A stretch of DNA of 48,021 nucleotides from Bacteroidales bacterium. Its GTDB lineage: Bacteria > Bacteroidota > Bacteroidia > Bacteroidales > UBA12170. The stretch lies in contig DMBV01000051.1 in assembly GCA_003445975.1 (NCBI GenBank), positions 1 through 48,021 on the forward strand, read 5' to 3'. The number at the start of each line of letters is the position of its first letter. Positions within the stretch are counted from its first letter, which is position 1. The notes below the pieces were generated by a model. The model had not been told where the DNA came from and searched no databases. It saw nothing but the letters and a program-made list of their open reading frames with translations. A program made the translations under genes and the position numbers. Of the stretch, positions 1,851 to 26,902 are shown one piece after another.

Positions 1851-4637
1851 TCAATATACGCCAGCAATAAGAGAGTAAATAATTAATAGTACAATCGTTA
1901 TTCCCATAAACAAAAACAGGAAGCCGAAAAATTTGACCGTATTTATCCACGAAGTTGAAAGTTCTTTTTCAACAACAACTTTTTCTAGATTTCCGGAATT
2001 AAGCAACTCTTCGTATTCTCTGGGTCTGTCGTTTTTGTATGCTTCCAAAGGTACATAACCTGTAAAAATGACCGTGTCGATTGGGAAAGATTCCGGGCGA
2101 AGATGTGTATTGAAAAAGTGAATTGTGAAAATAAATCCCACTGCTAATAAAGCTTCGTCGCTATGTATAATCTGCGCTACATTGATAACCCATCCTGGCA
2201 TAAACAGCGTAAAAAATTCAGGAAACCAAAGAATTAGTCCCGACAATCCAATTACTGCCACGCCCCAAAAAACGGCCATATAATCAAATTTCTCCCAATA
2301 AGTCCATCGGCCATAATTTGGTCGTGGCCCTTTGCCCAAGAACCATTTGATAGAAGCTACTAAATCTTTCATGTCCTGAAGATTGAACATCAACGAGTTT
2401 TTCCCGAAAATGAATTCCTTCAATTTGTAACCGTTTTTTTTCTTGAGTTGTGCTAGGTTATACAAATGAAATAGAAAATAGCCCAGAGTAAGAATGGCGC
2501 CAAATCGATGAAGACGACCTGCAGAATGAACGCCTCCCAAAAATTTTGCTACGCTCGACGCCCAATCCATGTGAGCAAACTTCAGCGTCATACCCGTTAA
2601 GGCAAGTAAAATAAAACTTACGATTACAAAAATGTGAGTGGTTTGTTGTTTTGCATTGAATCTTCGAACATATTTTTGGGGTCCGGCAACCTGCTCGTGT
2701 ATTAGTTTTTTTCGTTGTTTGAGCGAGCGCGGCAACCACAATAAGGTGTGTAAACCAAAAAAGCCAAAAACAAAAATCAGCAAAGAGGTCATTCCCCAGA
2801 ACGAATAAAACAGTACATTGTTGTCGTTGTGCGTGGCGTGTGTTAAATAGCCGGTAAATGCAAGATTCGCATTTTCATGGCATTGTTTACATGTTTGAAC
2901 GATGTTTTTATAGCCAACAGCCGAATTTGGATTATCGACCGACAAAATATGATGAGCGCCATGACAATCTGAACAACGGGCAGCATCCGGATCTCCTAAT
3001 AAATAGGCTTTTCCGTGATAGGTTTCTTTGTATGTTTCGGATAATTTTTGGTGACAATTTCCACACTGAAAAGTCACTTCATGCATAAAAGCATCTCCTT
3101 TGCTATCGCTAATCAAATGAGCCGAATGACAGGAGGAGCAGCTTGGGTATTCCTTTTCGCCTGTGCTTTGAGCTATTGAATGTTCGCTGGTAATGTATTC
3201 GTCGTAAATACTTCTGTGGCATTTCGCGCAGGTCAATGCTATATTTTTCTTATTTACCGACGACAATGAATCAGACTCTTTTAATTCCTGATGAGAAGTA
3301 TGGCAATCGATGCAAACAGCACTTACCAGCAAGCCTTTTTCCATCAATCCTTTTCCATGAGTGCTATTGGAATAATCAACCAACGCATTTTTTTCCTTCA
3401 AGTCGGTACTCAAATTTGCTTTTCCATCGGTCGCATGGCAGCTTCCGCAAAGTTTTGGAATAGCACTTCGGTAAGTGGGCGAATTTATGTCGAATTTAGA
3501 TTTTGTTTGATGTGTTCCATGGCAATCGGTACAATAGGTCGAGTTTGGTTTCTTGTCTAAAAATGATTTCCCATGACCGCTTGCAAAATAGTCGTTTGCG
3601 ACTTTGTTGTGGCAACCGGAACAATCAACTCGTTTAACAGTTTCGCAGGGTCGTTTAAGGTTTTTCGAAACCGTTGTATGACATTCGACGCATTGAATTT
3701 TGTTGTGGACAGAAGCGGGCAAATGATTCTCGTCAAATAGGATGGTGTCTCCGTTTTGTTTAAAAATAAATTCACCTTTAGATGCATTTATATTGTGGCA
3801 GTCTAAACAAATTTTGTTTGGTATTTTTGCTTTTTCTTTCTCGGGCTCTACTTTATGAGGTGGATGGCAGGTAGTACAAGAAGGAACCGCGCCTTCTTTT
3901 TTCTCCCACAGTTCGCTTTTTATCACTTTCTTATGTGTTTGTTCAATGCGAATGTGACATTTCATGCAGGTTGATGCTACTTTTTGGGTAGAAACGCTGG
4001 AATTTTTGTCTTTCGAAGGAAGAATAGCATGATTTCCATGACAATCGTTGCAGGTTGCAGTAACAAATAAACCTTTCTCGTACAATCCTTTTCCATGAAT
4101 TCCTTGGCTGTAATTTTCGAGAATATTGTGTTCGGAAATGACATATAGACGGGCCACAGGGGCTCCTTCTTTATGGCAATTGCCACAAAGAATGGGGATA
4201 TTCATTTTATACGTGCGCGATTCGGGCAGCTTCGACGAAAGAATATCGTGTGTTCCATGGCATTCTTTGCAGTTGGGAGCATAAGGTTCGTTTCGAATTA
4301 ATGCTTGTCCATGAATCCCGGACTTAAATTCTATTCCGGCTGCTATATGGCATTTCGAACAATCTACAAGGTTTAAAGTTTCCGAATGCGGAAACTCTTC
4401 TACTTTGGCATCGGTATGACAGGAGGCACACTCCACGTTTTTATGTACCGATTTGTCTATAATAGATTGCTTGACAAAGAGCGAAACCTTTTTGCCTTTT
4501 CTTTCTTTTGTTAAACTGGAATCTTCGTGGCACATCATGCAATCTGCGTTGGTTTGCGCCAGAACAAAATGAACACCAATTACGAAATAGAAAAGAATGA
4601 AAAGGAGACGCCTTCGGGAAAATGATTTTTTCAGCAT
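1851..4637 (-). CDS. cbcL: CbcL-like fusion of a 19-heme periplasmic cytochrome c and a C-terminal diheme cytochrome b membrane domain
   Basis: 928 aa with a signal peptide and 19 CxxCH motifs. The C-terminal FdnI/HyaC-like domain has four TM His ligands (QTTHIF, RLHRF, IIHSDE, TIHFF) and the [11 protein letters not shown] motif. Confidence 0.82.
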
Positions 4638-4872: not shown

Positions 4873-4910
4873 ACAAAAGAACAAAGGAAGCAGCTCCTTT
4901 GTTCTTTTGT
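4873..4910 (-). terminator. Intrinsic terminator after the DUF5777 gene
   Basis: Perfect 16-bp inverted repeat ACAAAAGAACAAAGGA / TCCTTTGTTCTTTTGT with a 6-nt loop, followed by a T-run on the minus strand. Confidence 0.7.
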
Positions 4911-5011: not shown

Positions 5012-5878
5012 TTAGAAACCCCACAAGCGAGTCATTACAAAACCGACCGAAAAACCGCCCAATTGCCAATCACTTTGGTTATAAAGAACGATATCTTGAG
5101 GAACTATTCCGTTTGCTGTTGCCAGAAAAATCTGAAAATCGTGTGTTCCGGTGCAAACTTCGTAACCAAAAGAAAGATTTGCTTTTGGTGGATTGATAAA
5201 TTCGCGCTGCTCGGAGAGTACATCAATTTGCAACGGCAAATCATAGGTGAAAATGAAAGACGACTGAGGCGAAAACTTTAACTTTCCGCCAAAATGCCAA
5301 GCTATTTTATCGTGATCCATATCGGCCGCAACAGAATTGTAATGTGTAAAACTGATGGCTGTTTGAATGCTTAGTGCTTCGCTTATTTTTCTTCCAATAA
5401 TAAGTTGCGAAAAATAGGAATACCGATGTATAAACGCATAGTTCAAGCCGTAATCTTTGTCTGGATTGCCACTAATGGCCATGTTTCCATATAAGGTAAT
5501 GGATACAGGAACGGTGTTTTTGCGAGTTTGTTCAAAAACGGTCCATTTTAAGTTGAAATCACTGTACATATTTTCTTTCGTAAGCCCATAGCCAATTTGA
5601 ACATTTTTAAAGAGAACGTAATTGAACCCCAAGCGGAGATTGGCTCCCGGAGAGTAGATTCCATATAAATCGGCCATGCTGCTTTGGATGCTTCCAAAAC
5701 GATGTTGAATAATCGATTCAAAAGAGTGTACCGAAGGAATGACAGAAGTCTGCTGGTCAATCAAAATACCACTTCCCCACGGAGAGTATACCGGTTTGTC
5801 CTTTTCTTCCTCGTCCTGGCAAAAGGCAATGGAAGTAAAAGAAAGAAGGAGTAGGATGCTAAATAGTATTTTCTTCAT
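5012..5878 (-). CDS. DUF5777-family outer-membrane beta-barrel protein
   Basis: Start re-called at ATG 5878 (MKKILF..., 288 aa). Signal peptide AFC|Q, the IQHRFG...LYG motif typical of DUF5777, alternating beta-strand pattern and C-terminal Phe. Confidence 0.75.
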   Translation of the reverse strand: MKKILFSILLLLSFTSIAFCQDEEEKDKPVYSPWGSGILIDQQTSVIPSVHSFESIIQHRFGSIQSSMADLYGIYSPGANLRLGFNYVLFKNVQIGYGLTKENMYSDFNLKWTVFEQTRKNTVPVSITLYGNMAISGNPDKDYGLNYAFIHRYSYFSQLIIGRKISEALSIQTAISFTHYNSVAADMDHDKIAWHFGGKLKFSPQSSFIFTYDLPLQIDVLSEQREFINPPKANLSFGYEVCTGTHDFQIFLATANGIVPQDIVLYNQSDWQLGGFSVGFVMTRLWGF

Positions 5879-5889
5879 AGCTTTTGTGT

Positions 5890-6267
5890 TTAATTGTTTT
5901 TCGCACCTTGATTTATCCATGTGTATATCAATTCTGCTTCATTTGTAGTATAAAACTCCCACCGATGTGTTGTTGCATTGGGTGAAGGATAAGTATAAAT
6001 CAAAGAATTTGCAGGGTTATTTATTACAACAAAACTTCCGTTTGTTAAGCTTTGGTAAGCATTTGCAGTAGTTAAATCCGGTGCAGTTTTTCCAGTATAA
6101 TGACAAACTGTGCATTTACTGTCGGTGTTGAAAATAGGAGCAATATCATTTAGAAACGATAACTCCACGTTTGGATCAGGAGGAGGTATAACTTTTACCT
6201 CTATAAATTCATATTGACAAGCTGTGAAAGATGCCAACACACAAAAAAGAATTATTAACTTCTTCAT
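5890..6267 (-). CDS. Monoheme cytochrome c lipoprotein (planctomycete cytochrome c-like domain)
   Basis: Lipobox FTAC, SF..DIAPIF, a single CTVCH, and C-terminal LIYTWINQGAKNN. Confidence 0.78.
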   Translation of the reverse strand: MKKLIILFCVLASFTACQYEFIEVKVIPPPDPNVELSFLNDIAPIFNTDSKCTVCHYTGKTAPDLTTANAYQSLTNGSFVVINNPANSLIYTYPSPNATTHRWEFYTTNEAELIYTWINQGAKNN

Positions 6268-6411
6268 CTGCTTATATTTTTTTAATTGAATTTGAATTAC
6301 GACAAGTCAATCGTTCGTTTTTCATTTGCTGAGAACCGAGTTTTCGTTTCATCCTTTTTTTCGGTTTTACTGATTAAATTACAAATAGAACGACCCTGAA
6401 ATTTTTGATTT

Positions 6412-6453
6412 AAAAGGAACAATCATTTGTGTGCAAAAATGATTGTTCCTTTT
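6412..6453 (-). terminator. Terminator or stabilising hairpin after the hexaheme lipoprotein gene
   Basis: Perfect 17-bp inverted repeat AAAAGGAACAATCATTT / AAATGATTGTTCCTTTT, 20 nt past the stop codon. Confidence 0.7.
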
Positions 6454-6473
6454 CAGGTTATGACTAAACCAAG

Positions 6474-7511
6474 CTATTTCGTGGCCTTCAAAGCCGCAAT
6501 TGTATTTGTTAATAAGGCATTTACATACTGAGGATTGTGAACACCTAAACTACGATCTTCTTCAATTCCAATCCAGTTGTAATAGGCTTGAGCTCTAACC
6601 ATAGGATAGGTTCCGGGTACTGGTTCGTAAGCTTGATCTACTTCATACCAAGCAACTACACCAAGGCTGATGAGTAAATCTCGTAATTCAGTCAACTTTT
6701 CTTCGGTATCAAACTGAACACCCCCATAATCAAAATTCTCGGTTGCATGACATTCTTGACAAGCTGCCAGACTAGGTTTAAATGTGTGGCCGCCCTGTTT
6801 ATCAATATAATCATCCATATGACAAACTGTACAAGAAGCTTGCTCAAGATGTTTGGAAGATCCAGCTACCGGATAAGTTACTGGTCCAGTAATTTCAGCA
6901 AACCCCTGACCGGCAAAAATATTGGCTTGTGGGCCATGGTGTGGTCCATAATGTGTGTTTGTAATTCTGAAGGTTGTTGCGCCTGCGACTGATGCCGTTT
7001 GTGGTTCTGCTGTTCTGGCTTGATGGCAGTTTATGCAAAGATTGCTGCCGTCGCCAATATCTAAAACAGTCACCCCTTGGTCAATGATCAATCCAACGGG
7101 TTCTTCCGAACGTAGTGCAAAATCGGTGTAGGTAAATGCTGTATGAATGATATGGCAGGTCTCACAATTTATAGCCGAAGGCATTGAAATGTCGGAGGCT
7201 ACCAAGCCATTTGCCTGAAATTCGATAAAGCCCTCACTTGAATGGCATTGAGCACAACCAGCACGACCACCTGCATAGGCTACGTTGGTTCCCGCTTTAT
7301 GAATAGATGAAGCATACTGAAATTGCCTAGCTGAAATGGTAGTTCCCGAATGGCAAGCCAAACAAGTAACATTGCCGTCTTGTCCGTCTTGTCCGTCTTG
7401 TCCGTCTAGCCCATCTTCACCCGTTAATCCGATGGGGCCTTCTTTAACACAAGATGCTAAAAAAACAATGGCAGTCATTAGTAAAATGTGAAAAATAAAT
7501 TTGGTTTTCAT
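6474..7511 (-). CDS. Hexaheme cytochrome c lipoprotein with an N-terminal collagen-like (Gly-X-Y)8 linker
   Basis: Lipobox LASC, then GPIGLTGEDGLDGQDGQDGQDGNV and six CxxCH. The C-terminal AYYNW..IEEDRSLGVHNPQYVNALL resembles the c552/OmcB-type helical tail. Confidence 0.8.
   Translation of the reverse strand: MKTKFIFHILLMTAIVFLASCVKEGPIGLTGEDGLDGQDGQDGQDGNVTCLACHSGTTISARQFQYASSIHKAGTNVAYAGGRAGCAQCHSSEGFIEFQANGLVASDISMPSAINCETCHIIHTAFTYTDFALRSEEPVGLIIDQGVTVLDIGDGSNLCINCHQARTAEPQTASVAGATTFRITNTHYGPHHGPQANIFAGQGFAEITGPVTYPVAGSSKHLEQASCTVCHMDDYIDKQGGHTFKPSLAACQECHATENFDYGGVQFDTEEKLTELRDLLISLGVVAWYEVDQAYEPVPGTYPMVRAQAYYNWIGIEEDRSLGVHNPQYVNALLTNTIAALKATK
7375..7407 (-). repeat. In-frame 9-bp tandem repeat encoding the collagen-like G-Q-D triplets
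   Basis: (CCGTCTTGT)x3 plus CCGTCT on the plus strand. Confidence 0.9.
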
Positions 7512-7550: not shown

Positions 7551-7637
7551 CAAAAATATTTCTATGTTATTGATATAACAATGATATATTAACGAAATCA
7601 AGTTGATGTTTATCATTGAAATATTGACATATATCAT
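7551..7637 (-). promoter_or_regulatory. Promoter of the hexaheme lipoprotein gene: -7 element, TGTTAT-N4-ATAACA palindrome and tandem FNR-like boxes
   Basis: TATTTTTG (minus strand, 7551-7558); TGTTAT-TGAT-ATAACA (7565-7580); weak ATGAT-ATAT-TAACG (7581-7594); TTGAT-GTTT-ATCAT (7603-7616); TTGAC-ATAT-ATCAT (7624-7637). Confidence 0.7.
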
Positions 7638-7723
7638 CGCGATAAATCGATTATTTATACTACACTGTGCATTGAGATAGCGGCCTTGGGCCAAAGCGGA
7701 TGGATTGGTAGGAAGAATGTATA

Positions 7724-7762
7724 AAAACAAAAAAGCCCCTTTGCTGATAAGACAAAGAGGCT
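7724..7762 (-). terminator. Intrinsic terminator after the cbcA-cbcB-c554 unit
   Basis: Stem AGCCCCTTTG / CAAAGAGGCT (one G-U pair on the minus-strand RNA) followed by a T-tract on the minus strand, 20 nt past the stop at 7783. Confidence 0.65.
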
Positions 7763-7782
7763 CTAATTGAAAGAAAAATAAG

Positions 7783-8271
7783 CTAAGCGGCAGGTTTTGG
7801 GTGCGCAACTTTTGCAAGGGCTTCTTTGTAATTAAAGCCTTTGTAATGCTTGCTTTCAGGATTGTGGCACGTGACGCATACTTTTTCGGTAGGCAATATC
7901 AAACCTTTTGCCATGGAAGCTTCTCTGCTTTTCATGATGGCATTTGGGAAATATGCACTTCCTGGACCATGGCAAGATTCGCAAGAAACGCCTTCGGTCA
8001 CTTTCAAGCCTGTTACCAAATCAATCTTTACACTGCCGTGCGTAGAGTGACACTTATTGCATTTTGGATCCAAGGCTTCTGTTGCACTTAAAGATTCCAT
8101 TGCTTTTGAGTGACGCGATTCCACCCATTGTGCATACTGTCCACCGGTTTCGACTTTGTTGTGGCACATTTTGCATTTGTTAGCGCCAACGTACGTAAAT
8201 TCTTGGGCTTTCAGGCTGCTGTTTCCTATAAAAGCAACCATAAAAATTAAAATTAAAATTCTCATTTTCAT
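7783..8271 (-). CDS. Periplasmic tetraheme cytochrome c (cytochrome c554 family)
   Basis: Signal peptide LKA|Q, YVGANKCKMCH...W..S.H, CNKCH, GVSCESCHGPGS, CVTCH. Confidence 0.85.
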   Translation of the reverse strand: MKMRILILIFMVAFIGNSSLKAQEFTYVGANKCKMCHNKVETGGQYAQWVESRHSKAMESLSATEALDPKCNKCHSTHGSVKIDLVTGLKVTEGVSCESCHGPGSAYFPNAIMKSREASMAKGLILPTEKVCVTCHNPESKHYKGFNYKEALAKVAHPKPAA

Positions 8272-8351
8272 CTTTTTATTTATTTAAGTGTTTATTAATT
8301 ATTTGAATTTAAGTTTAGAATACTTCTTGAAAAGAATAAAAGTTTATTTTT

Positions 8352-8966
8352 TTAATGTTTCTCATGAAAACCGGTAAACATGCTTTTAAAATTACTCGTT
8401 GGAGTACAACCAATTGTGCAAAAATAAATGTGCACAATCAAGAAGACAGATATAAAAAAGCCCATTATTACGTGGATAATATCAGTAATATGAAGTGCCT
8501 TACTGCCGAAAATTTCAAAAATCATCAGTTCCGGAAAAAAGAGCATAAGCCCGCTTAAAGCTACCAAAGGAATGGTTAAATGCATGATGACAATATAGCT
8601 GAACTTCTGCAAAGGATTAAATTTGGATTCTTCAGTAATAGGAAAGGGCGGTTTTTCGCCTTTAAAGATTCCAAAGGAATAGTATTTAGCTTGCTTTATT
8701 AGGTTATTTACGATTCCTTTTCTGAAAATATAATGCTTCCCGTTGGGTGTTAGCACATTACCAATAAAAAATCCAAGATAACTCACCGCCAATAAGATTC
8801 CGGCAATATCGTGTAAATAAACAGCCCAATCGAAGCGAATCATTGGATAGGCCGGATCGGAATATTGCATGCTTATTCCGGTGAATATCAAAAGCAAGCA
8901 TAGGATGGCATTAGACCAATGCCAAAATCGAACCCAAACAGGATATAAATATATTTTTTCACTCAT
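8352..8966 (-). CDS. cbcB: CbcB-like diheme cytochrome b (four TM helices)
   Basis: Start re-called at ATG 8966 (MSEKIY..., 204 aa), overlapping the upstream stop by 8 nt (ATGAGTGA). Heme b His ligands in RFWHW, YLHD, IIHV and IVHIY; KFNPLQK motif. Confidence 0.75.
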   Translation of the reverse strand: MSEKIYLYPVWVRFWHWSNAILCLLLIFTGISMQYSDPAYPMIRFDWAVYLHDIAGILLAVSYLGFFIGNVLTPNGKHYIFRKGIVNNLIKQAKYYSFGIFKGEKPPFPITEESKFNPLQKFSYIVIMHLTIPLVALSGLMLFFPELMIFEIFGSKALHITDIIHVIMGFFISVFLIVHIYFCTIGCTPTSNFKSMFTGFHEKH

Positions 8967-9945
8967 GGCGCTTTTTAGAATTAAAGATGATACGTAAAGA
9001 AGCATGAATCAACAAAACAACTACCACAAGTCCGAATAAAATTATACTTATCGCATTCAGATAATAATTTCTGTTTGCTCCAATCACATACGATTCTTCT
9101 AGTATAGCATCGTTCGAAAAGCCTAAATCGCTTCGTTTATTCGTAAATTGATATTTGTACAAGGAGGCCAATAGCCGTGAATTCTTTGAATGGCATTCGA
9201 CGCATGATTTTACAGCCAATTCTTTTGGCAGTACATTGTGTGCTACCAATATTTCGTTGTTTATTTCGGTATGGCATTCAATGCAGCGCACTTTGCTAAA
9301 ATGTAAAACTTGATTTGGAAGCCATGCATGTGTTTCCAAAACATTTGGGTTGTCTTTGGTTGTAAGTAACTGATATTTACTTAAGTTGGCATGGCATGAC
9401 AGACAAATTTCGTTGTCGTATAAAATAAAATCGGCCACCTTCTCATTGGTTCGAGCGGAAATTTTATACGTATGGGGGTTGTGACACAACGAACAAGTAA
9501 AGTCATCCAAATGCTTAGACGAATGGACACTTTTGTGAAAGTCCTCTTCGATTTTTTCAAAATTATATTGAGAATGAGTATCATCGCCGGCATGGCAATC
9601 CATACATGAAAATTTTGGCTCCATACGTGCCTGACCGGAATGGGGAAATTCACCACATTCTGAAGAATGACAGTCGCCGCACAAGAAAGTTCGGTGGTTC
9701 GATGCGTAATACTCCAACGAATCAATAATAAAATAAGGATTCATACGCTGTTTGACTTCGCGTTCGGTGTTGGAGTTGAAGTACGAAAACGTAGAGTATC
9801 CATGACATTTAAAACATTCTTGATTTTGCTCGATGTTGGCAGGGTCTATCGCAATGGATTCTTCTTGTGCCAAAACAGTAGCAGTTGTTGCAAAAAGTAC
9901 AGAGAAAATCAGAAGTAAAGTGTAGATAACAAATCTCGATTTCAC
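8959..9945 (-). CDS. cbcA: CbcA-like heptaheme cytochrome c with a C-terminal membrane anchor
   Basis: 328 aa with signal peptide VLA|Q, seven CxxCH and a single C-terminal TM helix (ISIILFGLVVVVLLIHASL). Translationally coupled to the cytochrome b gene, as in Geobacter cbcAB. Confidence 0.75.
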   Translation of the reverse strand: MKSRFVIYTLLLIFSVLFATTATVLAQEESIAIDPANIEQNQECFKCHGYSTFSYFNSNTEREVKQRMNPYFIIDSLEYYASNHRTFLCGDCHSSECGEFPHSGQARMEPKFSCMDCHAGDDTHSQYNFEKIEEDFHKSVHSSKHLDDFTCSLCHNPHTYKISARTNEKVADFILYDNEICLSCHANLSKYQLLTTKDNPNVLETHAWLPNQVLHFSKVRCIECHTEINNEILVAHNVLPKELAVKSCVECHSKNSRLLASLYKYQFTNKRSDLGFSNDAILEESYVIGANRNYYLNAISIILFGLVVVVLLIHASLRIIFNSKKRHE

Positions 9946-9983
9946 AATTTTTAAATATTTTTATGTTTAGTAAATATAGGATG

Positions 9984-10048
9984 TAAAAGTATTTTTTTGT
10001 TATATTTATAACAATGATATTTGTCATCAATATATTGATATATGTCAA
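9984..10048 (-). promoter_or_regulatory. Promoter of cbcA-cbcB-c554: -7-like element, TGTTAT-N4-ATAACA palindrome and two FNR-like boxes
   Basis: TACTTTTA (minus strand, 9984-9991); TGTTAT-ATTT-ATAACA (9998-10013); ATGAT-ATTT-GTCAT (10014-10027); TTGAT-ATAT-GTCAA (10035-10048). Confidence 0.7.
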
Positions 10049-10398
10049 TTTATGAAAACCTATTTATCGAAATCCAATGCGAAAAATCCAAACATAATTT
10101 GGTTGGCGAGTCGATTTTTAAATGAGTATAATTAGTTGAATATGAATAATATGTAATAATACCAAAAGAGGGGCGTTTTGGTGATTCACCATCAAAAATT
10201 TAGAAAACCGAAGTTCATATTTTTCTAATTTTGCTAGTGCTAAAAATAAATTAGCTCTTTTTGTTGAGAAGCAGGATCGATTTAATGCTGGAATATCCCA
10301 CAGCCGTGATGAATTTTTCGGCATGCTTTTTTTTAAAAGACTTCTTTGGTGATTCGGCTCAAATTTGGCTGCTGAAAATAAAATTCTGCTCAAGGGAA

Positions 10399-11097
10399 TT
10401 AACTATTACTGATCTTGGTCAATGAATTTAATTTAACAATTTCCACTTGATTTCTGTTCACTTTGATAATGCCGGCGTCTTTCAGCTCCTTGAGCGTGCG
10501 AATAAAACTTTCTTTTGTCATGGCGGCTAGATCGGCCAAATCTTGACGGCTTAAGTTTAGTGTAAACCTTTCACTCTCATAAATTTCATTTTGTAAGTAT
10601 AGCAAAACTTCAGCTACTCGACCGGCCATGCTTTTATAAGTAAGATTGGCTAGTTTATGCGTAAACTGGATGCTGTTTTGATTTGTCAGCGTAATCATCT
10701 CAATAGCCATTACTTTGCTTTTTTCTATCACCGCTTCAATATCTTTTGTTGCAATCAAACAAAGATTCACATCTGTCAGAGCTTGAACAGTCAGATGATG
10801 AATGTTGTCGGTATATAGACCAATTCCGCTACAAATTCTTCCTGCTCCAACAATATTCACGAGCATATTGCTGCCTTCCGGTCGCTCGTAGTAAACTTTT
10901 GCCATTCCCTCTCTAAAACAGGCAAAATGAGTGAGAGCGGTGCCTTGTTTAAAGATAACTTCCCCAGCTTTAAAAACAACTTCTTTGCGTTCCGAATGGA
11001 GCTCGTTGAATTCAGTTTTGGATAGTTTTCGAAATAAGGGTGGGGTGCTTTCGCAGCAGCAAATAGTACACGTTCCGTAATGAATACAATCTCTCAT
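10399..11097 (-). CDS. Crp/Fnr family transcriptional regulator with a Cys-rich N-terminus
   Basis: cNMP-binding-like domain (FKAGEVIFKQG...EGMAKVY) and HTH LSRQDLADLAAMTKESFIRTL. The N-terminus MRDCIHYGTCTICCC has five Cys. Confidence 0.9.
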   Translation of the reverse strand: MRDCIHYGTCTICCCESTPPLFRKLSKTEFNELHSERKEVVFKAGEVIFKQGTALTHFACFREGMAKVYYERPEGSNMLVNIVGAGRICSGIGLYTDNIHHLTVQALTDVNLCLIATKDIEAVIEKSKVMAIEMITLTNQNSIQFTHKLANLTYKSMAGRVAEVLLYLQNEIYESERFTLNLSRQDLADLAAMTKESFIRTLKELKDAGIIKVNRNQVEIVKLNSLTKISNS

Positions 11098-11340
11098 GGT
11101 ATTTGGATGTCTAAAAACCGATTCAAATTGTTATGAAACCCAAATTTAGAAACATTTGCGATAAGTATTCATAAAATAACAAATAATTAAATATTTAGAT
11201 ATGAATTTATCTGCATTTGTAAATCATTTCTTTTTTTCGCCCTCTTTTTTCTTAAGTTCCTGTTTTATTCTAGCTTTTCTAAGAAAGCAAAAAAATAGCT
11301 TAAACTCGATTAACTCACCTCACTTTACAAGAAGACGAAA

Positions 11341-11384
11341 CTGACATATATCAACTGTCCTATAAGGAAATTTCGATAATTTTG
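11341..11384 (+). promoter_or_regulatory. Promoter of the NHL / 12-heme unit: FNR-like box plus -7 element
   Basis: CTGAC-ATAT-ATCAA (11341-11354), a 22-nt spacer, then TAATTTTG (11377-11384). Confidence 0.7.
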
Positions 11385-11421
11385 TAATTATTCGTGGAAA
11401 TTAGAATTAGGCTCACAAGAC

Positions 11422-12426
11422 ATGATGAAGTTTGGAATGGGATTGTTATTTTTCTTTGTTCTGCAGTCGGCTATGGCTCAAAGGACTTCGAGTGTTCAGA
11501 ACAATTTGGTTACGGATAATATACTCATCCAATGGATAAATCAATACCCCAGTCCAGGCAATAAGAATACCCACAGGTCTTTTTTTGAACAAGTAGCTCG
11601 CATTGTTTTTGGTAAGAAAAGCGGATTAAACATTCGAAAACCGAATGCCGTTCTAGCCAAAAGTCCTATTTCTTATACTATCATGGATCAGGGAAATGAG
11701 GTTCTTTTCAATGTTGAAAATGAGGAAATGCGAATTCCTAAAGGATTCAAAAAAACAAAATTTTATTTCCCTTCCTTGGTAAGTATGTGTTATCTTTCAA
11801 GCACTCTGGTCTTGTTTACGGATTCCAAATTGAATCAGCTATTTTTGTTAGACCAAGTCCGCGAAACTTTAGGATTGTTCAACACAGACATAATACTCAA
11901 TCAGCCAACCGGAATTGCTTATTCTGTTTTGAGTAATGAAATTTGGGTTGTTGAGACGGGCGCTCACCGCATTCAAATATTTACCGAAAAGGGAGCACTT
12001 GTAAAAACAATTGGCGGTAGAGGTTCTGAGCCAGGTGAATTCAATTATCCTACGGCCATCTGGATTGATAAAAATGGAAAGGCTTATATTATCGATTCGA
12101 TGAATTTTAGAATTCAGGTGTTTGATTCCGCCGGAAAGCTTGTTTCGGTTTTTGGGGAACCAGGCGATGCTAGTGGCTATTTTGCCCGGCCAAAAGGAAT
12201 TGCTACCGATTCGTTTGGGAATATATATATTACGGATGCTTTGTTTCATACAGTTCAAATTTTCGACTTGTCGGGCAATTATTTATATAATTTTGGAGAA
12301 CAAGGCAGAGGAAACGGACAGTTTTGGATGCCTTCAGGTATTTTTATTGATGAGAATAATTTTATTTATATAGCAGATAGTTACAATTCAAGGATTCAAG
12401 TATTTCAACTTAATAAAAATGAGTAA
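11422..12426 (+). CDS. NHL-repeat 6-bladed beta-propeller protein (secreted)
   Basis: Signal peptide AMA|Q and repeated NHL motifs (GEFNYPTAIWID..G..YI.DS.N.RIQVF, FARPKGIATD, FWMPSGIFID). Confidence 0.88.
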   Translation: MMKFGMGLLFFFVLQSAMAQRTSSVQNNLVTDNILIQWINQYPSPGNKNTHRSFFEQVARIVFGKKSGLNIRKPNAVLAKSPISYTIMDQGNEVLFNVENEEMRIPKGFKKTKFYFPSLVSMCYLSSTLVLFTDSKLNQLFLLDQVRETLGLFNTDIILNQPTGIAYSVLSNEIWVVETGAHRIQIFTEKGALVKTIGGRGSEPGEFNYPTAIWIDKNGKAYIIDSMNFRIQVFDSAGKLVSVFGEPGDASGYFARPKGIATDSFGNIYITDALFHTVQIFDLSGNYLYNFGEQGRGNGQFWMPSGIFIDENNFIYIADSYNSRIQVFQLNKNE

Positions 12427-14101
12427 AATGAAGAGAACTACATTTCTTATACTACTTGGATTGATTTATTTTTCTTTATCAGTTAACGCTCAGTCAATTA
12501 GAACCACAAAGCATAATTTGTCGGTTACAAGCCCGGGAACTATCAAAGCCACCACGGAAAGCGAAATCTGCATTTTTTGTCATACTCCACACAATAGTAC
12601 ACCCAAGGTTCCATTGTGGAATAGAAACGTAGCAGGAAGTGTTTATACCTTGTACACAAGTTCTACCTTGAACGCCACCGAAGGTCAGCCCGATGGAGCT
12701 TCTATTTTATGCCTTTCCTGTCATGATGGATCGATCGCTTTGGGGAGTGTTGTGAGTAGAATTTCTCCGATAGATATGACGCTTGCATTGAGTTCAGACG
12801 CAAATTTATCAACCGATTTATCAAACGATCATCCAATTTCGTTTTTGTATAATAGTACATTGGCTACCTCTGACGGGCAATTGAGAACTCCGCCATTAAC
12901 TACAACGCACCTCGATAACAATTCAAAATTACAATGTTCGTCCTGCCATGACCCGCACAAAGACCTTTATCCTAATTTTTTGTTGGCATCAAATCTAAAT
13001 TCAGGACTTTGTATTTTGTGTCACAGCAGAACGTATTGGGCGAGCTGCACACATGCTTCTTCGAGCAAGACTTGGAATGGCTCGGGCTTAAATCCTTGGG
13101 CACATATCGAAACTCCTTACCCTACAGTTTCACAAAACGCATGTGCCAATTGCCATAATGTGCACAATGCCAATGGAAAACTTCGCTTGCTTAAATTAGT
13201 TCCAGAAGAAAGTAACTGCCTAGATTGCCACAATGGAAATGTAGCCAGCAAAAATATTCAATCACAGTTTGCCAAAATATATAAACATAATATATATGGA
13301 TACAATAATATTCACGATCCCGCCGAAGCGACTTCGGTAACAACAAAACATGTTGAATGTCAGGATTGTCATAATTCCCACGCATCGAATGCGAGCACGG
13401 CCACTGCGCCTTTTGTTTCGGGGTATAATGTTGGTGTAAGTGGGATAAATCAGAGTGGTGTAGCTGTATCGTCGGTGAGTAATACTTACGAAATATGCTA
13501 TAAGTGTCACGCTGGCAATTCTTGGTCGCCACCGGCTGCTTTGCCGCGAAAAATAAGTCAGAATAATGTTCGATTGGAATTTGCCACCGGAAATCCGTCG
13601 TTTCATCCGGTAGTTGGATCTACCATTACCAACTCGCCAAGCATAATTCCGCCCCTCACTACGGGCTCTAAAATTTATTGCACTAATTGCCACGGAAGTG
13701 ATAATAGCAGCGACCCCAGAGGTCCTCACGGCTCCTTGTATCCGCAAATATTGAAATTGCAATATACAAGCATTGATAATACAGTTGAATCGCCTACGGC
13801 GTATGCGCTTTGTTACAGCTGCCACAGCAGAACCAGTATTTTGAGCGACAATACGTTTAAAAAACATTTTGTTCACGTAGTTACTGCAAAAACCCCATGC
13901 AGCGTTTGCCACGACGCGCACGGAATAAGTAATATACAAGGCAATAGCACCAATAATTCACATCTTATCAATTTTAGAACAGATGTGGTGGTAGGTATAG
14001 GCGCTTTATTGCGTTTGGAGTTTGTGGATAGAGGCGACCGAAGTGGATATTGTGTTTTAAAATGCCACAATAAAGTACATGGTTCTGGAATGTCCTATTA
14101 G
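12419..14101 (+). CDS. 12-heme cytochrome c: N-terminal OmcE-like tetraheme module fused to an 8-heme extension
   Basis: 11 CxxCH plus C-terminal CVLKCH. The N-terminal SIRTTKHNLS, CIFCHTPHN, PLWNR, LCLSCHDG, TDLSNDHPISF and CSSCHDPH mirror OmcE motifs. The start overlaps the NHL stop. Confidence 0.8.
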   Translation: MSKMKRTTFLILLGLIYFSLSVNAQSIRTTKHNLSVTSPGTIKATTESEICIFCHTPHNSTPKVPLWNRNVAGSVYTLYTSSTLNATEGQPDGASILCLSCHDGSIALGSVVSRISPIDMTLALSSDANLSTDLSNDHPISFLYNSTLATSDGQLRTPPLTTTHLDNNSKLQCSSCHDPHKDLYPNFLLASNLNSGLCILCHSRTYWASCTHASSSKTWNGSGLNPWAHIETPYPTVSQNACANCHNVHNANGKLRLLKLVPEESNCLDCHNGNVASKNIQSQFAKIYKHNIYGYNNIHDPAEATSVTTKHVECQDCHNSHASNASTATAPFVSGYNVGVSGINQSGVAVSSVSNTYEICYKCHAGNSWSPPAALPRKISQNNVRLEFATGNPSFHPVVGSTITNSPSIIPPLTTGSKIYCTNCHGSDNSSDPRGPHGSLYPQILKLQYTSIDNTVESPTAYALCYSCHSRTSILSDNTFKKHFVHVVTAKTPCSVCHDAHGISNIQGNSTNNSHLINFRTDVVVGIGALLRLEFVDRGDRSGYCVLKCHNKVHGSGMSY

Positions 14102-14146
14102 CTATTTTGTTTTTTTTAATCGAAATCATAAAAAAATACATGTAAA

Positions 14147-14205
14147 TTGATATATATCAACGAATAAGTGAATATTTTGTTATACATTTGTGAAAAATAT
14201 AACAG
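14147..14205 (+). promoter_or_regulatory. Promoter of the OmcE-like gene: perfect FNR box, -7 element and a Rex/CRP-like palindrome over the start site
   Basis: TTGAT-ATAT-ATCAA (14147-14160), a 22-nt spacer, TACATTTG (14183-14190), then TTGTGAA-AAAT-ATAACAG (14188-14205). Confidence 0.8.
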
Positions 14206-14237
14206 TGTTTAATTAATAACATATAACTATTTGCCTT

Positions 14238-14864
14238 ATGAAAACTTTAAATTTACTCGCTGCATTTTGTTTTGCGGTGTTTTTTTCGACAATGGGTTTT
14301 GGTCAAATTGCCGGATCTGCCCATGATTTCACTACTGAGAGCTGGAACTCCTCCGGTGAAATGTGTAATGCTTGCCATACACCACACAATTCGTTAACAA
14401 TTGCCGATGCTCCGTTGTGGGATCACCAAGTGAGTGTTGCCACTTTTACACTTTACACTTCCCCAACTATGAATGGAACATTTGGTGTAGGTGCACAGCC
14501 CTCAGGATCGTCAAAATTGTGCTTAAGCTGTCATGATGGGACAGTAGCTCTTGACAACTTTGGTGGAGTTACCACGGGAACTAATTTTATTACAGGTGTT
14601 GGTAATGTTGGCATTGATTTATCTAATGACCATCCAGTTTCTTTTACTTACGATGCTGCTTTGGCTACTGCTGATGGTGGTTTGTTCAACCCAACCACAG
14701 CAAATAGCGGTCTGGGTAGCACGGTCACTGCCGACTTGTTGTATGCCGGAAAAGTAGAATGTTCTTCTTGTCACGATGTGCACAGAGGCGGAAGTGCAAC
14801 AGGAAAATTATTGGTTAAGTCGAATGCTGCAAGTGCGCTTTGTTTAACATGTCACGACAAATAG
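14238..14864 (+). CDS. omcE: OmcE-like tetraheme cytochrome c, candidate cytochrome nanowire subunit
   Basis: 208 aa with a Sec signal and four CxxCH. The motif order SAHDF, CNACHTPHN, PLWD, FTLYTS.TMN, SKLCLSCHDG, DLSNDHPVSF, ECSSCHDVH and terminal LCLTCHDK matches Geobacter OmcE as recalled. Four conserved distal His allow bis-His ligation of all hemes. Confidence 0.82.
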   Translation: MKTLNLLAAFCFAVFFSTMGFGQIAGSAHDFTTESWNSSGEMCNACHTPHNSLTIADAPLWDHQVSVATFTLYTSPTMNGTFGVGAQPSGSSKLCLSCHDGTVALDNFGGVTTGTNFITGVGNVGIDLSNDHPVSFTYDAALATADGGLFNPTTANSGLGSTVTADLLYAGKVECSSCHDVHRGGSATGKLLVKSNAASALCLTCHDK

Positions 14865-14884: not shown

Positions 14885-14920
14885 AAATCCAAAGGAGGCC
14901 ATCGCCTCCTTTGGATTTTT
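14885..14920 (+). terminator. Strong intrinsic terminator after the OmcE-like gene
   Basis: Perfect 15-bp stem AAATCCAAAGGAGGC-CATC-GCCTCCTTTGGATTT ending in a T-run, 20 nt past the stop. Confidence 0.85.
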
Positions 14921-15175
14921 CATAATTCGCTTACTGATAGTGTGATGAAGCTTACTTATAAAAGGTGGTTTTTTTGTATTGTCGTTTTTATTTAAAATTC
15001 GCACAAGCTTAAATCAGTATTTGCTACTTACGACATTTTTTGGGAACGGCTATGCCTGTTTTTTTGTTAAACCCTAATTGTTAATTACTTAAAACAAGTT
15101 TTGTTCGAATCGAAAAATAAATACACTATCTTTAAAGAAAAACTATACGATTGCAAATTTAAAGAATCCCAACTA

Positions 15176-16373: not shown

Positions 16374-17216
16374 TTGAAAAACGTGAAGGCCAAATATATT
16401 TATTATATTTTCTTTACAATTTCATTCATTTGGTCTTGTTCGCCAAAACAGAGTTATACGATTAAGTCGTTTTTTTTCGACGGCGTTCCAAATCCATTTC
16501 TTGAAGAAGTGGCTATTCTGGAAGACAGTTCTCAACTTAGCCTCGCTGGTACAAATAATGATATTGCAACTGTCATGGTACCAAAAGAGGAGTTTATTCT
16601 TCACGAGCCTTACAAAACGCGAGATTGCTCGAGCTGTCACGACAGAAATCAAATGGGAAAACTCAAACTGCCTACTCCAAATCTGTGCAATCTATGTCAC
16701 GAAGATTTCACTATAACCTTTCCCGTTGTTCACGGACCAGTAGTTTCGGGAAGCTGTTCGCAGTGTCACGAGCCGCATCAGTCGAAATTAAAAAGTTTAT
16801 TAAAACAGCCCACTCAGGAGCTTTGTATTGCTTGTCACGAAACTCATTTTAGTGAAGAAAACCGCATTCACAAATCAGTATCTGAGAAAATTTGTACGGA
16901 ATGCCACGATCCACACGGCGGGAAGGATAGATTCTTGTTGGAATCGGGAATTTGCTACAAATGCCACACCGATTTTGAAAGCAAATTTAAAATTTTGCAT
17001 GGCCCCGTTTATACACAATCCTGTTTCCTTTGTCATGGAACTCATGCCAGCAAAACGGAAAAATTATTGATCAAACCGGTGAATGAGTTGTGTTTAGGAT
17101 GCCATGAAAGCAACGCTATTTTTTCGGGCAGTTACCATATTGGTGCCGAAAAAGCGGAGTGTACTAGTTGTCATAGTCCGCATGGCGGCTCCGATTTCAA
17201 ATTACTTTTAAACTAG
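16374..17216 (+). CDS. Nonaheme cytochrome c, doubled-CxxCH (cytochrome c3 / DmsE-like) family, probable lipoprotein
   Basis: TTG start, possible lipobox FIWSC, an FFFDGVP motif, and nine CxxCH in repeated HGPV..G.C..CH.PH.S...LL......LC..CH units. Confidence 0.82.
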   Translation: MKNVKAKYIYYIFFTISFIWSCSPKQSYTIKSFFFDGVPNPFLEEVAILEDSSQLSLAGTNNDIATVMVPKEEFILHEPYKTRDCSSCHDRNQMGKLKLPTPNLCNLCHEDFTITFPVVHGPVVSGSCSQCHEPHQSKLKSLLKQPTQELCIACHETHFSEENRIHKSVSEKICTECHDPHGGKDRFLLESGICYKCHTDFESKFKILHGPVYTQSCFLCHGTHASKTEKLLIKPVNELCLGCHESNAIFSGSYHIGAEKAECTSCHSPHGGSDFKLLLN

Positions 17217-17225
17217 TCAGGCGCT

Positions 17226-19208: not shown

Positions 19209-19236
19209 TAAAACATAACGCAATAAAATAGAGATA

Positions 19237-21156: not shown

Positions 21157-21302
21157 ATTGAGCGGTATCGGGTTTTTAAAATAAAAATAAAAGTACAACA
21201 AAAGGACCAGCATCAGTGGTTTGAAGCGCAATTATTTTGAGTTTTAAAGGGATCTTAAAAAGGCTAAGATTTTTTATATTCGGATCGAACAGAAATTCGA
21301 AT

Positions 21303-22250: not shown

Positions 22251-22282
22251 GGCGTTAATATTTTTAGTTCCAGATTCTTTTT

Positions 22283-23284: not shown

Positions 23285-23487
23285 TTATTTCTGTAATTTT
23301 ATGCAAAAGTAGCACATTTAGAATATCTTTAATGGCCATTCGCTTAAATCGCAATTTTTCATGTGCGTGTAATTTGTGTATATTTGTTTCATGTCTCAAT
23401 GGGACGATTTTGGCGGAATGGCGGATCAATCATTTTGCTTGTGTATGAAAATGGTTTCATGAGCATCATTACAAAATTCTATTTATT

Positions 23488-26886: not shown

Positions 26887-26902
26887 ATCGTTCTATTCGA
26901 CA

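What the first reader, a model, noticed from the sequence alone, without database searches (positions are those of the whole stretch)
7551..14190. Four promoters share an FNR-type box exactly 22 nt upstream of the Bacteroidota -7 element
Seen in sequence, box then -7 element: 14147-14160 (perfect TTGAT-ATAT-ATCAA) then TACATTTG; 11341-11354 then TAATTTTG; on the minus strand 10014-10027 then TACTTTTA; and a weak half-site box at 7581-7594 then TATTTTTG. All four spacers are 22 nt. The two minus-strand promoters have extra boxes in tandem at 21-22 nt pitch (7603, 7624; 10035). Established: TTGAT-N4-ATCAA is the FNR consensus, and class II activation is centred at -41.5. Inference: if +1 lies 5 nt after the TTTG, the boxes centre at -41.5. 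That defines a regulon for the adjacent Crp/Fnr protein and suggests class II activation works with the atypical Bacteroidota primary sigma factor.
Basis: partly seen in the sequence, partly recalled or inferred. Interest (0 to 1): 0.72.

Follow-up and report, generated by a model that had tools for sequence, protein, structure and literature searches.

The report
FNR-type boxes phased to Bacteroidota promoters
An uncultured Bacteroidales bacterium carries FNR-like regulator binding sites at exactly the same distance from its unusual promoters in front of four multihaem cytochrome operons, and about 16 related genomes keep that distance, which suggests (but does not prove) that the classic proteobacterial way of switching on anaerobic genes also works in this phylum.

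Summary

- **Chance:** TGAYATATRTCA with at most 1 mismatch occurs 5 times against 0.33 expected. Box-N22-TAnnTTT[GA] occurs twice in intergenic DNA; no shuffle out of 2000 gave two.
- **Conservation:** across 30 sources from about 16 lineages, 20 distinct promoters have a spacer of exactly 22 nt, and none has 18-21 or 23-29. Further boxes fall only at 43 or 44 nt. The spacer sequence is not conserved (34% identity).
- **Position:** TAnnTTTG lies at -12..-5 (PMC9723704), so the sites centre at -41.5, -62.5/-63.5 and -83.5/-84.5.
- **Regulator:** it is a new Crp/Fnr clade with an N-terminal cysteine cluster, and an invariant Cys aligns with FNR Cys122. It scores far below the Fnr family cut-off.
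two of the four promoters also carry a -33 TTG and a second conserved palindrome, TGTTA-N6-TAACA, at -34..-19.

No transcription start or binding data exist, so activation remains an inference. I rate this a new variant of a known kind, of moderate interest.

The parts
14147..14160 (+). Perfect box TTGATATATATCAA, the only box of the promoter of the 4-haem cytochrome gene. Inferred centre -41.5.
   Evidence: Orthologous promoters in L022, L027 and L026 have a box at the same 22-nt distance.
14183..14190 (+). -7 element TACATTTG. No TTG at -33.
   Evidence: The position of the element at -12..-5 is taken from PMC9723704.
14189..14221 (+). Two TGTTA-N6-TAACA-like palindromes (14189-14204 and 14206-14221, one mismatch each), at about -6..+10 and +12..+27.
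   Evidence: The same pair is present in L027 and one copy in L022.
14238..14864 (+). 4-haem cytochrome c gene (208 aa), monocistronic, followed by a hairpin plus T-run at 14885-14921.
   Evidence: A metatranscriptome contig covers 14257-14610.
11341..11354 (+). Box CTGACATATATCAA, the only box of the NHL-propeller/11-haem cytochrome operon promoter. Inferred centre -41.5.
   Evidence: Orthologues in L022 and L027 have the same spacing.
11377..11384 (+). -7 element TAATTTTG. The ATG lies 37 nt downstream.
11422..14101 (+). Operon of an NHL beta-propeller (334 aa) and an 11-haem cytochrome (560 aa).
10399..11097 (-). Crp/Fnr-family regulator (232 aa). Cys4, 10, 13, 14 and 15 plus invariant Cys113. 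Recognition helix TKESFIRTLKE.
11141..11148 (-). Likely -7 element of the regulator's own promoter (TAAATTTG), with no box at 22 nt.
   Evidence: A TAnnTTTG lies 42-63 nt before the ATG in most orthologues.
10035..10048 (-). Distal box TTGACATATATCAA. Inferred centre -62.5.
10014..10027 (-). Proximal box ATGACAAATATCAT. Inferred centre -41.5.
9998..10013 (-). Second palindrome TGTTATAAATATAACA at -34..-19. Its first bases, together with the last T of the box, form a -33 TTG.
9984..9991 (-). -7 element TACTTTTA. The final base is also A in the L022 and L027 orthologues.
7783..9945 (-). Operon of a 7-haem cytochrome (328 aa), cytochrome b561 (217 aa) and a 4-haem c554-like cytochrome (162 aa). 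Terminator-like hairpin at 7732-7764.
7624..7637 (-). Distal box ATGATATATGTCAA. Inferred centre -84.5.
7603..7616 (-). Distal box ATGATAAACATCAA. Inferred centre -63.5.
7581..7594 (-). Degenerate proximal box CGTTAATATATCAT. Only the right half ATATCAT is kept. Orthologues mostly have GTGATTAATATCAT here.
7565..7580 (-). Second palindrome TGTTATATCAATAACA at -34..-19.
7551..7558 (-). -7 element TATTTTTG.
5012..7511 (-). Operon of a 6-haem lipoprotein cytochrome (345 aa), a 125-aa lipoprotein with one CXXCH, and a DUF5777 beta-barrel. Terminator-like hairpin at 4873-4910.
   Evidence: The same gene order follows the regulator in L001-L007, L019-L026.

Best explanation
The boxes are operators for a dimeric Crp/Fnr-family activator, most likely the protein encoded at 10399-11097.

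**The sensor.** The protein belongs to a previously undescribed Bacteroidales clade with an FNR-like cysteine set: an N-terminal CxxCCC plus an invariant Cys that aligns with FNR Cys122. It therefore probably holds an oxygen-labile Fe-S cluster and binds DNA only under anoxia.

**Where it binds.** It recognises TGAyATATrTCA. The sites are held at fixed helical phase relative to the sigma-A -7 element TAnnTTTG.
- In the two plus-strand promoters a single site is centred at -41.5, and no -33 element is present. This is class II geometry: the activator takes the place of the -33 contact and recruits RNA polymerase.
- In the two minus-strand promoters there are arrays of two or three sites at -41.5, -62.5/-63.5 and -83.5/-84.5, all on one face of the helix and 21 nt apart. 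These act from class-I/III-like positions on promoters that do have a -33 TTG.
- The minus-strand promoters also carry a second palindrome, TGTTA-N6-TAACA, across -34..-19. An unidentified second factor is predicted to bind it, probably a repressor.

**What it controls.** The output is anoxic induction of four transcription units that encode multihaem cytochromes, a cytochrome b, NHL propellers and a beta-barrel. Together these look like a periplasm-to-outer-membrane electron conduit.

**Shown:** the sequences, their enrichment, conservation of the exact spacing, the linkage to the regulator, and the protein's cysteine and helix features.

**Inferred:** the transcription start position, binding by this protein, the direction of regulation, the oxygen signal, and the function of the cluster.
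For: 1. The boxes and spacers are exact and strongly enriched.
2. In 30 deduplicated sources, the spacer between a zero-mismatch core box and TAnnTTTG is 22 nt in 20 cases and 43 or 44 nt in 19. Only 7 cases are scattered over all other values from 0 to 60, and none is at 21 or 23.
3. The single-box promoters of three or four lineages share only 34% spacer identity, yet always the same length. This argues for selection on geometry rather than inheritance.
4. Site centres are quantised at -41.5 (15), -62.5 (14), -63.5 (5), -83.5 (5) and -84.5 (1). Where the proximal site has decayed, the next site sits at -63.5.
5. TAnnTTTG occupies -12..-5 in a mapped Flavobacterium transcriptome (PMC9723704).
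6. The regulator orthologue (66-91% identity) lies directly beside such a promoter in every locus recovered.
7. Cys10, 13 and 15 are nearly invariant and Cys113 is invariant across 30 homologues. Cys113 aligns with FNR Cys122, and Glu196 and Arg200 align with FNR Glu209 and Arg213.
8. The highest fold-search TM-scores (0.83 over 228-229 columns) are to holo-FNR of A. fischeri.
9. FNR Ser212 contacts the outer T in E. coli (stated from memory). Here it is Ile199, and the outer base is not conserved in single-box sites.
10. Single-box promoters lack a TTG at -33, as expected for activator-dependent promoters.
11. In some lineages a box lies directly after the regulator's own -7 element, an fnr-like position for autorepression.
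Against: - No transcription start, binding or expression-change data exist. The only RNA evidence is one metatranscriptome contig inside 14238-14864.
- The regulator scores 41 bits against the NCBIfam Fnr subfamily, whose cut-off is 228. The Cys spacing (CxxCCC) differs from FNR's C-x3-C-x2-C-x5-C, and residues 1-15 are modelled with low confidence. Cluster binding is therefore a guess.
- A second Crp/Fnr paralogue exists in related genomes and is itself preceded by perfect boxes. The factor that binds could therefore be a different family member.
- Both motifs co-occur with the regulator, so linkage alone cannot assign either one.
- In L002 and L003, tandem boxes upstream of a NapC-like cytochrome gene have no TAnnTTTG at 22 nt.
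- The promoters are phylogenetically related, so the 20 cases are not 20 independent events.
Confidence: 0.6

Rival explanations
1. The adjacent regulator binds the second palindrome TGTTA-N6-TAACA, which has CRP-like N6 spacing. The TGAyATATrTCA boxes would then be bound by another Crp/Fnr protein encoded elsewhere: a global FNR, or the paralogue with helix TKDSVIK.
For: - The second palindrome is as tightly linked to the regulator gene as the boxes are. It also occurs upstream of the regulator gene itself in L005, L008, L009, L015, L023 and L025.
- A second paralogue exists in L023, L001 and L010.
- Crp/Fnr-family sites of the HcpR1 type tolerate TTGTTA half-sites (site tables in PMC545781).
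Against: - The regulator keeps the Glu and Arg pair that in CRP and FNR reads the G:C of the TGA core. The boxes have an invariant TGA, whereas TGTTA has T at that position.
- Homologues with the KES..R helix at 44-53% identity, outside cytochrome clusters, still have TTGAT-type boxes next to their genes.
- The paralogue has Asp and Lys at these positions, which is a better fit for a different half-site.
Confidence: 0.15
2. The boxes are repressor operators. The regulator occludes the -33 region and upstream DNA and keeps the cytochrome genes off until it is inactivated.
For: - A site spanning -48..-35 overlaps the place where sigma region 4 would sit.
- Arrays of two or three adjacent sites resemble cooperative repressor arrays.
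- In some lineages a box overlies the regulator's own start site, which is a repressing position.
Against: - Occlusion does not need single-base precision. Yet the spacer is exactly 22 nt in 20 diverged promoters, and further sites fall only at multiples of 21 nt.
- Single-box promoters lack any -33 element, so they look activator-dependent.
- The positions match those from which CRP and FNR activate in E. coli: -41.5, about -61.5 and about -82.5 (established knowledge).
Confidence: 0.12
3. The regulator binds the boxes and activates, but the signal is not oxygen sensed through a [4Fe-4S] cluster. It could be a thiol-redox switch, nitric oxide, a metal, or a small ligand in the cNMP-like pocket.
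For: - The Cys pattern CxxCCC differs from the FNR pattern, and two more Cys (4 and 60) are invariant in the close family.
- The closest solved relative by sequence is P. gingivalis HcpR (9day, E 1e-11), a haem/NO sensor. FNR scores only 9e-6.
Against: - The Cys that aligns with FNR Cys122 is invariant even in 30%-identical homologues, and three N-terminal Cys are nearly invariant. This is the FNR ligand arrangement.
- The target genes are anaerobic-respiration-type cytochromes.
Confidence: 0.2
4. The pattern is a chance product of AT-rich intergenic DNA.
For: Intergenic DNA here is 33% G+C, and ATAT-rich palindromes arise easily.
Against: - None of 2000 dinucleotide-preserving shuffles reached the observed count.
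- The observed counts exceed expectation.
- The spacing is conserved exactly across about 16 lineages while the spacer sequence has diverged.
Confidence: 0.01

Closest known systems
E. coli FNR and its class II promoters (for example narG, nrfA, dmsA; site TTGAT-N4-ATCAA at -41.5). Established knowledge, recalled from memory.
   Same: - Two-domain Crp/Fnr fold.
- N-terminal Cys cluster plus a central Cys at the position of Cys122.
- The Glu...Arg recognition pair.
- A 14-bp palindrome with a TGA/TCA core and N4 spacing.
- Site centre at -41.5 on promoters that lack the upstream hexamer.
- Targets are anaerobic respiration genes.
- In some lineages, a site over the regulator's own start.
   Different: - Only about 20% identity, and 41 bits against a 228-bit family cut-off.
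- Cys spacing is CxxCCC.
- Ser212 is replaced by Ile and Val208 by Lys.
- The central ATAT is conserved and the outer T/A is not.
- The partner is the Bacteroidota sigma-A with -33/-7 elements, not sigma-70.
- Sites form contiguous arrays at 21-nt pitch.
CRP/FNR class I and class III (tandem-site) promoters of E. coli, with sites near -61.5, -82.5 and -92.5. Established knowledge.
   Same: Upstream sites lie on the same helix face as -41.5, at -62.5/-63.5 and -83.5/-84.5.
   Different: - Positions are offset by 1-2 bp.
- Neighbouring dimers abut, with 7 bp between the 14-mers.
- The sites are combined with a further palindrome over the core promoter.
Characterised Crp/Fnr proteins of Bacteroidota: P. 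gingivalis HcpR, PgRsp and CrpPg (PMC12040651), and the HcpR2 motif GTAAC-N4-GTTAC (PMC1274295).
   Same: Same superfamily and same phylum. HcpR (9day) is the best PDB sequence hit.
   Different: - Different sensing module: no Cys cluster has been reported for them.
- Different DNA motif.
- Different targets (hcp, virulence and stress genes).
- The papers found describe no fixed class II geometry.
CRP-like motif near psrABC and cydAB in Chlorobaculum tepidum (bioRxiv 10.1101/172254).
   Same: An organism of the Bacteroidota-Chlorobiota group with a TAnnTTTG-like promoter. A CRP/FNR-like motif lies upstream of respiratory genes at mapped distances from the start site.
   Different: - That motif has no spacer (PrfA-like).
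- Its positions vary (-57, -58, -35, or overlapping the -6 box).
- The regulator was not assigned.
Shewanella EtrA (an FNR orthologue) and control of anaerobic respiration and cytochrome genes (PMC3078092).
   Same: A Crp/Fnr-family regulator tied to anaerobic electron-transfer genes.
   Different: A proteobacterial true FNR orthologue that fine-tunes a global regulon. Here the clade is divergent and sits inside the cytochrome cluster.

Membership tests
Crp/Fnr superfamily | N-terminal cNMP-binding-like beta-roll, followed by a dimerisation helix and a C-terminal HTH_Crp_2 domain. | tested here: met
   - PF00027 at 4e-15 and PF13545 at 2.8e-16.
- The AlphaFold model has pLDDT 83.
- Foldseek TM-scores are 0.8-0.83 to FNR, GlxR and CRP.
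FNR-type Fe-S oxygen sensors | Three N-terminal Cys plus one central Cys (E. coli Cys20, 23, 29, 122) as cluster ligands. | tested here: met
   - Cys10, 13 and 15 are at least 90% conserved and Cys113 is invariant in 30 homologues.
- Cys113 aligns with Cys122.
- The spacing differs: CxxCCC.
FNR-type Fe-S oxygen sensors | Actually binds an oxygen-labile [4Fe-4S] cluster that controls dimerisation. | not testable with these tools
   Residues 1-15 are modelled below pLDDT 50, as expected without the cofactor. Biochemistry is needed.
FNR-type Fe-S oxygen sensors | Recognition helix E--SR (Glu209, Ser212, Arg213). | tested here: inconclusive
   Glu196 and Arg200 are conserved, and Ser is replaced by Ile199. 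This is consistent with the loss of conservation at the outermost box position.
Fnr orthologue family (NCBIfam NF008365) | Score at or above the curated cut-off of 228 bits. | tested here: not met
   41.1 bits. No Crp/Fnr equivalog model comes near its cut-off.
FNR-box regulon | Palindromic TTGAT-N4-ATCAA-like sites upstream of the target genes and linked to the regulator. | tested here: met
   Binding by this protein was not tested.
Class II activator-dependent promoter | Activator site centred near -41.5 relative to a mapped transcription start. | tested here: inconclusive
   The distance to the -7 element is exactly 22 nt. -41.5 follows only if the start lies 5 nt after TTTG, as in F. psychrophilum (PMC9723704). 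No start-site data exist for this organism.
Class II activator-dependent promoter | Spacing to the core promoter is constrained to the base pair. | tested here: met
   20 of 20 promoters at 22 nt, none at 21 or 23, with spacer identity of 34%.
Class II activator-dependent promoter | Weak or absent upstream (-35/-33) element. | tested here: inconclusive
   Met for the two plus-strand promoters and their orthologues. Not met for the two minus-strand promoters, which have a TTG at -35..-33.
Class II activator-dependent promoter | Direct contact of the activator with sigma region 4 and the alpha subunit. | not testable with these tools
   The beta4-beta5 loop ERPEGSN is nearly invariant. This is only a hint.
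Bacteroidota sigma-A promoter | TAnnTTTG at -12..-5, with or without TTG/TTTG near -33. | tested here: met
   Three of the four promoters have an exact TAnnTTTG and one has TAnnTTTA. 5'UTRs of 37-64 nt are typical (PMC9723704).

The most novel reading that the evidence does not exclude
The quantised positions -41.5, -62.5/-63.5 and -83.5/-84.5 relative to TAnnTTTG would mean that CRP/FNR-type activation by direct contact with RNA polymerase has the same geometry in Bacteroidota as in Proteobacteria. This would hold despite the divergent primary sigma factor and the -33/-7 promoter.

A previously unrecognised Fe-S FNR-like clade of Bacteroidales would then gate a putative extracellular electron-transfer cytochrome cluster. 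It would act together with a second, unidentified regulator bound at TGTTA-N6-TAACA over the core promoter, giving a two-input switch.
Probability: 0.4. Interest if true: 0.7.

Novelty: new variant of a known kind. Interest (0 to 1): 0.55.

Why it matters
How activators work with the Bacteroidota primary sigma factor is almost unexplored. I found no paper describing a class II type promoter or an Fe-S FNR in this phylum.

These promoters offer a sharply defined and evolutionarily validated architecture, with a spacing rule exact to one base pair. It can be tested directly with spacer insertions, in vitro transcription and footprinting.

It would also give a rule for predicting the regulation of multihaem cytochrome clusters in uncultured sediment and groundwater Bacteroidales, and a candidate anoxia-inducible promoter design for Bacteroidota engineering.

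Conceptually it remains an extension of the FNR/CRP paradigm rather than a new principle.

Tried and rejected
1. **Mapping transcription starts from public RNA.**
   - Only two groundwater metatranscriptomes hold any of the region, as one 354-nt contig inside 14238-14864.
   - The single run returned by an RNA search for relative L002, of unrecorded type, looks like DNA.
2. **Extending the rule to distant homologues.** Two homologues from larger genomes (P0046 and P0056, 30-37% identity) have no TTGAT box at 22 nt near those genes. L031 has a CRP-like TGTGA-N6-TCACT site 8 nt before its own -7 element instead.
3. **Looking for more regulon members.**
   - 10 kb beyond the window's left edge (L032) holds none.
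   - The right edge could not be extended.
4. **Looking for a locally encoded factor for the second palindrome.** There is no Rex, MerR or other DNA-binding protein in the window, apart from an ECF sigma factor at 39210-39797.
5. **Known RNA elements.** Rfam and tRNA scans found none.
6. **Extending the second palindrome into a longer symmetric element that includes the proximal box.** The flanks are not symmetric in register (inspection). Rejected.
7. **Literature on DUF5777 and on the TGTTA palindrome.** Nothing relevant was found.
8. **Sigma-70-type promoter scan.** Uninformative: 52 hits against 61 expected.

Full report
**Observation.**
- The four promoters have a 14-mer box, exactly 22 nt, and then TACATTTG, TAATTTTG, TACTTTTA or TATTTTTG.
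- Two caveats apply. The -7 element at 9991-9984 ends in A, and the box at 7581-7594 keeps only its right half (ATATCAT).
- The extra boxes at 10035, 7603 and 7624 lie at a pitch of 21, 22 and 21 nt.

**Is it more than chance?**
- TTGAYNNNNRTCAW gives 10 strand matches against 1.7 expected.
- The motif that is really conserved, TGAYATATRTCA, gives 5 hits at one mismatch or fewer against 0.33 expected. All five fall in the four intergenic regions between 7.6 and 14.2 kb.
- The composite 'box, 22 nt, TAnnTTT[GA]' occurs twice in the 5,963 nt of intergenic DNA. It never occurred twice in 2000 dinucleotide-preserving shuffles, whose mean was 0.04.
- A further match inside cysS (28926-28939) is probably chance.

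**Context.** Positions 297-20310 hold one cluster of ten c-type cytochrome genes with about 78 CXXCH motifs. The cluster also has a cytochrome b561, a 19-haem protein fused to a cytochrome b domain, two NHL propellers, a DUF5777 beta-barrel and proteins without known domains.
- A type IX secretion CHU_C protein and Bacteroidales/Draconibacterium relatives place the organism in Bacteroidales. It is found in sediment, groundwater, lake and cave metagenomes.
- Hairpin terminators at 7732-7764, 4873-4910 and 14885-14921 delimit four box-controlled units: 9945-7783, 7511-5012, 11422-14101 and 14238-14864.
- The units starting at 4637 and 15101 have no box.

**Comparative test.** The regulator has orthologues of 66-91% identity in many metagenomes. 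I recovered 31 related loci, of which 29 entered this spacing analysis.
- In every locus with an orthologue, the gene is followed or preceded by promoters of the same design.
- After deduplication, the distance from a zero-mismatch core box to a downstream TAnnTTTG is 22 nt in 20 promoters and 43 or 44 nt in 19 (the distal boxes). Only seven cases are scattered over all other distances from 0 to 60, and none is at 21 or 23.
- The single-box promoters (NHL operon and the 4-haem gene in the window, L022, L027 and L026) share on average 34% of their spacer bases, which is about random. All are nevertheless 22 nt long. Length is therefore under selection, not sequence.
- A Flavobacterium psychrophilum transcription-start map places TAnnTTTG at -12 to -5 (PMC9723704).
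- On the same scale, all sites in the multi-box promoters fall at -41.5 (15 cases), -62.5 (14), -63.5 (5), -83.5 (5) or -84.5 (1). Where the proximal site has decayed (window 7581, L011, L013, L022, L027), the next site lies at -63.5.
- These are the positions from which CRP and FNR activate in E. coli: -41.5, about -61.5 and about -82.5 (established knowledge).

**Two promoter classes and a second operator.**
- The plus-strand promoters (11341 and 14147) have one box and no TTG near -33.
- The minus-strand promoters (10014 and 7581) and their many orthologues read ...ATATCAT|TGTTA-N6-TAACA-A-N5-TAnnTTTG.
- The junction CAT|TG creates a TTG at -35..-33. The perfect palindrome TGTTA-N6-TAACA covers -34..-19.
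- Two one-mismatch copies also lie just downstream of the -7 element of the 4-haem gene promoter (14189-14204 and 14206-14221). The orthologous promoter in L027 has the same pair and L022 has one copy.
- Copies also lie upstream of the regulator gene in several lineages.
- Such positions suit a repressor. A MerR-type spacer-binding activator cannot be excluded.
- No candidate factor is encoded in the window. Related genomes carry a second Crp/Fnr paralogue with a different recognition helix (TKDSVIK), itself preceded by a perfect box. That paralogue is a lead only.

**The regulator.**
- It has the Crp/Fnr domain pair.
- Among 30 homologues, Cys10, 13 and 15 are nearly invariant and Cys113 is invariant. 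Cys4, 14 and 60 are also conserved in the close family.
Cys113 matches Cys122, the N-terminal cluster overlies Cys16-23, and Glu196 and Arg200 match Glu209 and Arg213. Ser212 is replaced by Ile and Val208 by Lys.
- The Ser-to-Ile change fits the unconserved outer base of the single-box sites.
- The model is confident except for residues 1-15. It superposes best, by TM-score (0.83) and coverage, on holo-FNR of A. fischeri, but all Crp/Fnr structures score similarly.
- By sequence it is remote from everything solved: HcpR 1e-11 and FNR 9e-6. It is far below every NCBIfam cut-off, with Fnr at 41 bits against 228.
- It is therefore FNR-like in design but not an FNR orthologue.

**Mechanism proposed.** Under anoxia the Fe-S form dimerises and binds TGAyATATrTCA.
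- At the single-box promoters it replaces the missing -33 contact, as in class II activation.
- At the array promoters, two or three dimers on one face of the helix assist a polymerase that has a -33 TTG. A second factor at TGTTA-N6-TAACA adds an independent input.
- Shown: sequence, enrichment, conserved geometry, linkage and protein features.
- Inferred: the start site, who binds, the sign of regulation, the signal, and the cluster's role in electron export.

**Rivals.**
- The adjacent protein binds the second palindrome and another paralogue binds the boxes (0.15). The helix residues argue against this.
- The boxes are repressor operators (0.12). The one-base precision and the missing -33 argue against this.
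- The signal is something other than oxygen (0.2). This is compatible with the rest of the model.
- Chance. Refuted.

**Prior knowledge.** Full-text searches found no description of an FNR box, an Fe-S FNR or class II geometry in Bacteroidota.
- The characterised family members in the phylum are HcpR, PgRsp and CrpPg (PMC12040651). The HcpR2 motif is different (PMC1274295).
- A CRP-like motif near respiratory genes in Chlorobaculum tepidum has variable positions (10.1101/172254).

**Verdict.** This is a new variant of a known kind.

Noticed in passing
window 9998-10013, 7565-7580 (minus-strand promoters); 14189-14204, 14206-14221; 15079-15094: A second conserved palindrome, TGTTA-N6-TAACA. It lies at -34..-19 in two promoters (exactly 6 nt before TAnnTTTG in more than 20 orthologous promoters) and as a tandem pair just after the -7 element of the 4-haem gene. 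The binding factor is unknown and the positions look repressor-like.
   Followed up: partly
L023 16608-17306 (-); also L001 near 9785 and L010 near 4778: Related genomes carry a second Crp/Fnr paralogue (about 35% identity, helix TKDSVIK, fewer N-terminal Cys). Each is preceded by a perfect TTGATAAATATCAA or TTGATATATATCAA box, which suggests a regulator cascade.
   Followed up: partly
L005 6315-6328, L015 1170-1183, L023 about 7851-7864: In one lineage a box TTGATAATTGTCAA lies immediately after the -7 element of the regulator's own promoter, 41 nt before the ATG. This is an fnr-like position for negative autoregulation. The window's regulator promoter (-7 at 11148-11141) has no box.
   Followed up: partly
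L002 13935-13969, L003 13202-13236: Tandem boxes at 21-nt pitch upstream of the NapC-like cytochrome gene have no TAnnTTTG at 22 nt. This is an exception to the spacing rule, or a promoter of another type.
   Followed up: partly
window 14257-14610: A 354-nt contig from two groundwater metatranscriptome runs matches with two differences. The 4-haem gene behind the perfect box is therefore probably expressed in situ.
   Followed up: yes
window 1851-4637 (-): A 928-aa protein with 19 CXXCH motifs is fused to a cytochrome b561/formate-dehydrogenase-gamma-like membrane domain. It may be a single-polypeptide link from the quinol pool to the periplasm.
   Followed up: no
window 16374-20310 (+): A 660-aa protein with no Pfam or NCBIfam match lies between a 9-haem and a 10-haem cytochrome. 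The arrangement is conserved in L022 and L027 and resembles a porin-cytochrome module. No box or recognisable -7 element lies upstream of 15101.
   Followed up: no
window 6474-7511 (-): The 6-haem lipoprotein has a short collagen-like Gly-X-Y stretch after its signal peptide (weak Pfam Collagen hit at residues 25-46).
   Followed up: no
window 44280-44293; L032 10199-10212: Boxes with perfect half-sites (TTGATGAGAATCAA and TTGATAACCATCAA) lie inside coding regions, without the ATAT centre and without a -7 element at 22 nt. They are probably chance. They show that the E. coli consensus alone over-predicts sites here.
   Followed up: yes
window 20425-29314 compared with L019, L023, L025: The cluster is flanked by asd, ribF, a large T9SS LTD/CHU_C protein, RNase H and cysS in the same order in several relatives. 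In those relatives the regulator sits directly next to ribF and the 345-aa cytochrome operon. The window's lineage, like L022 and L027, has extra operons inserted.
   Followed up: partly
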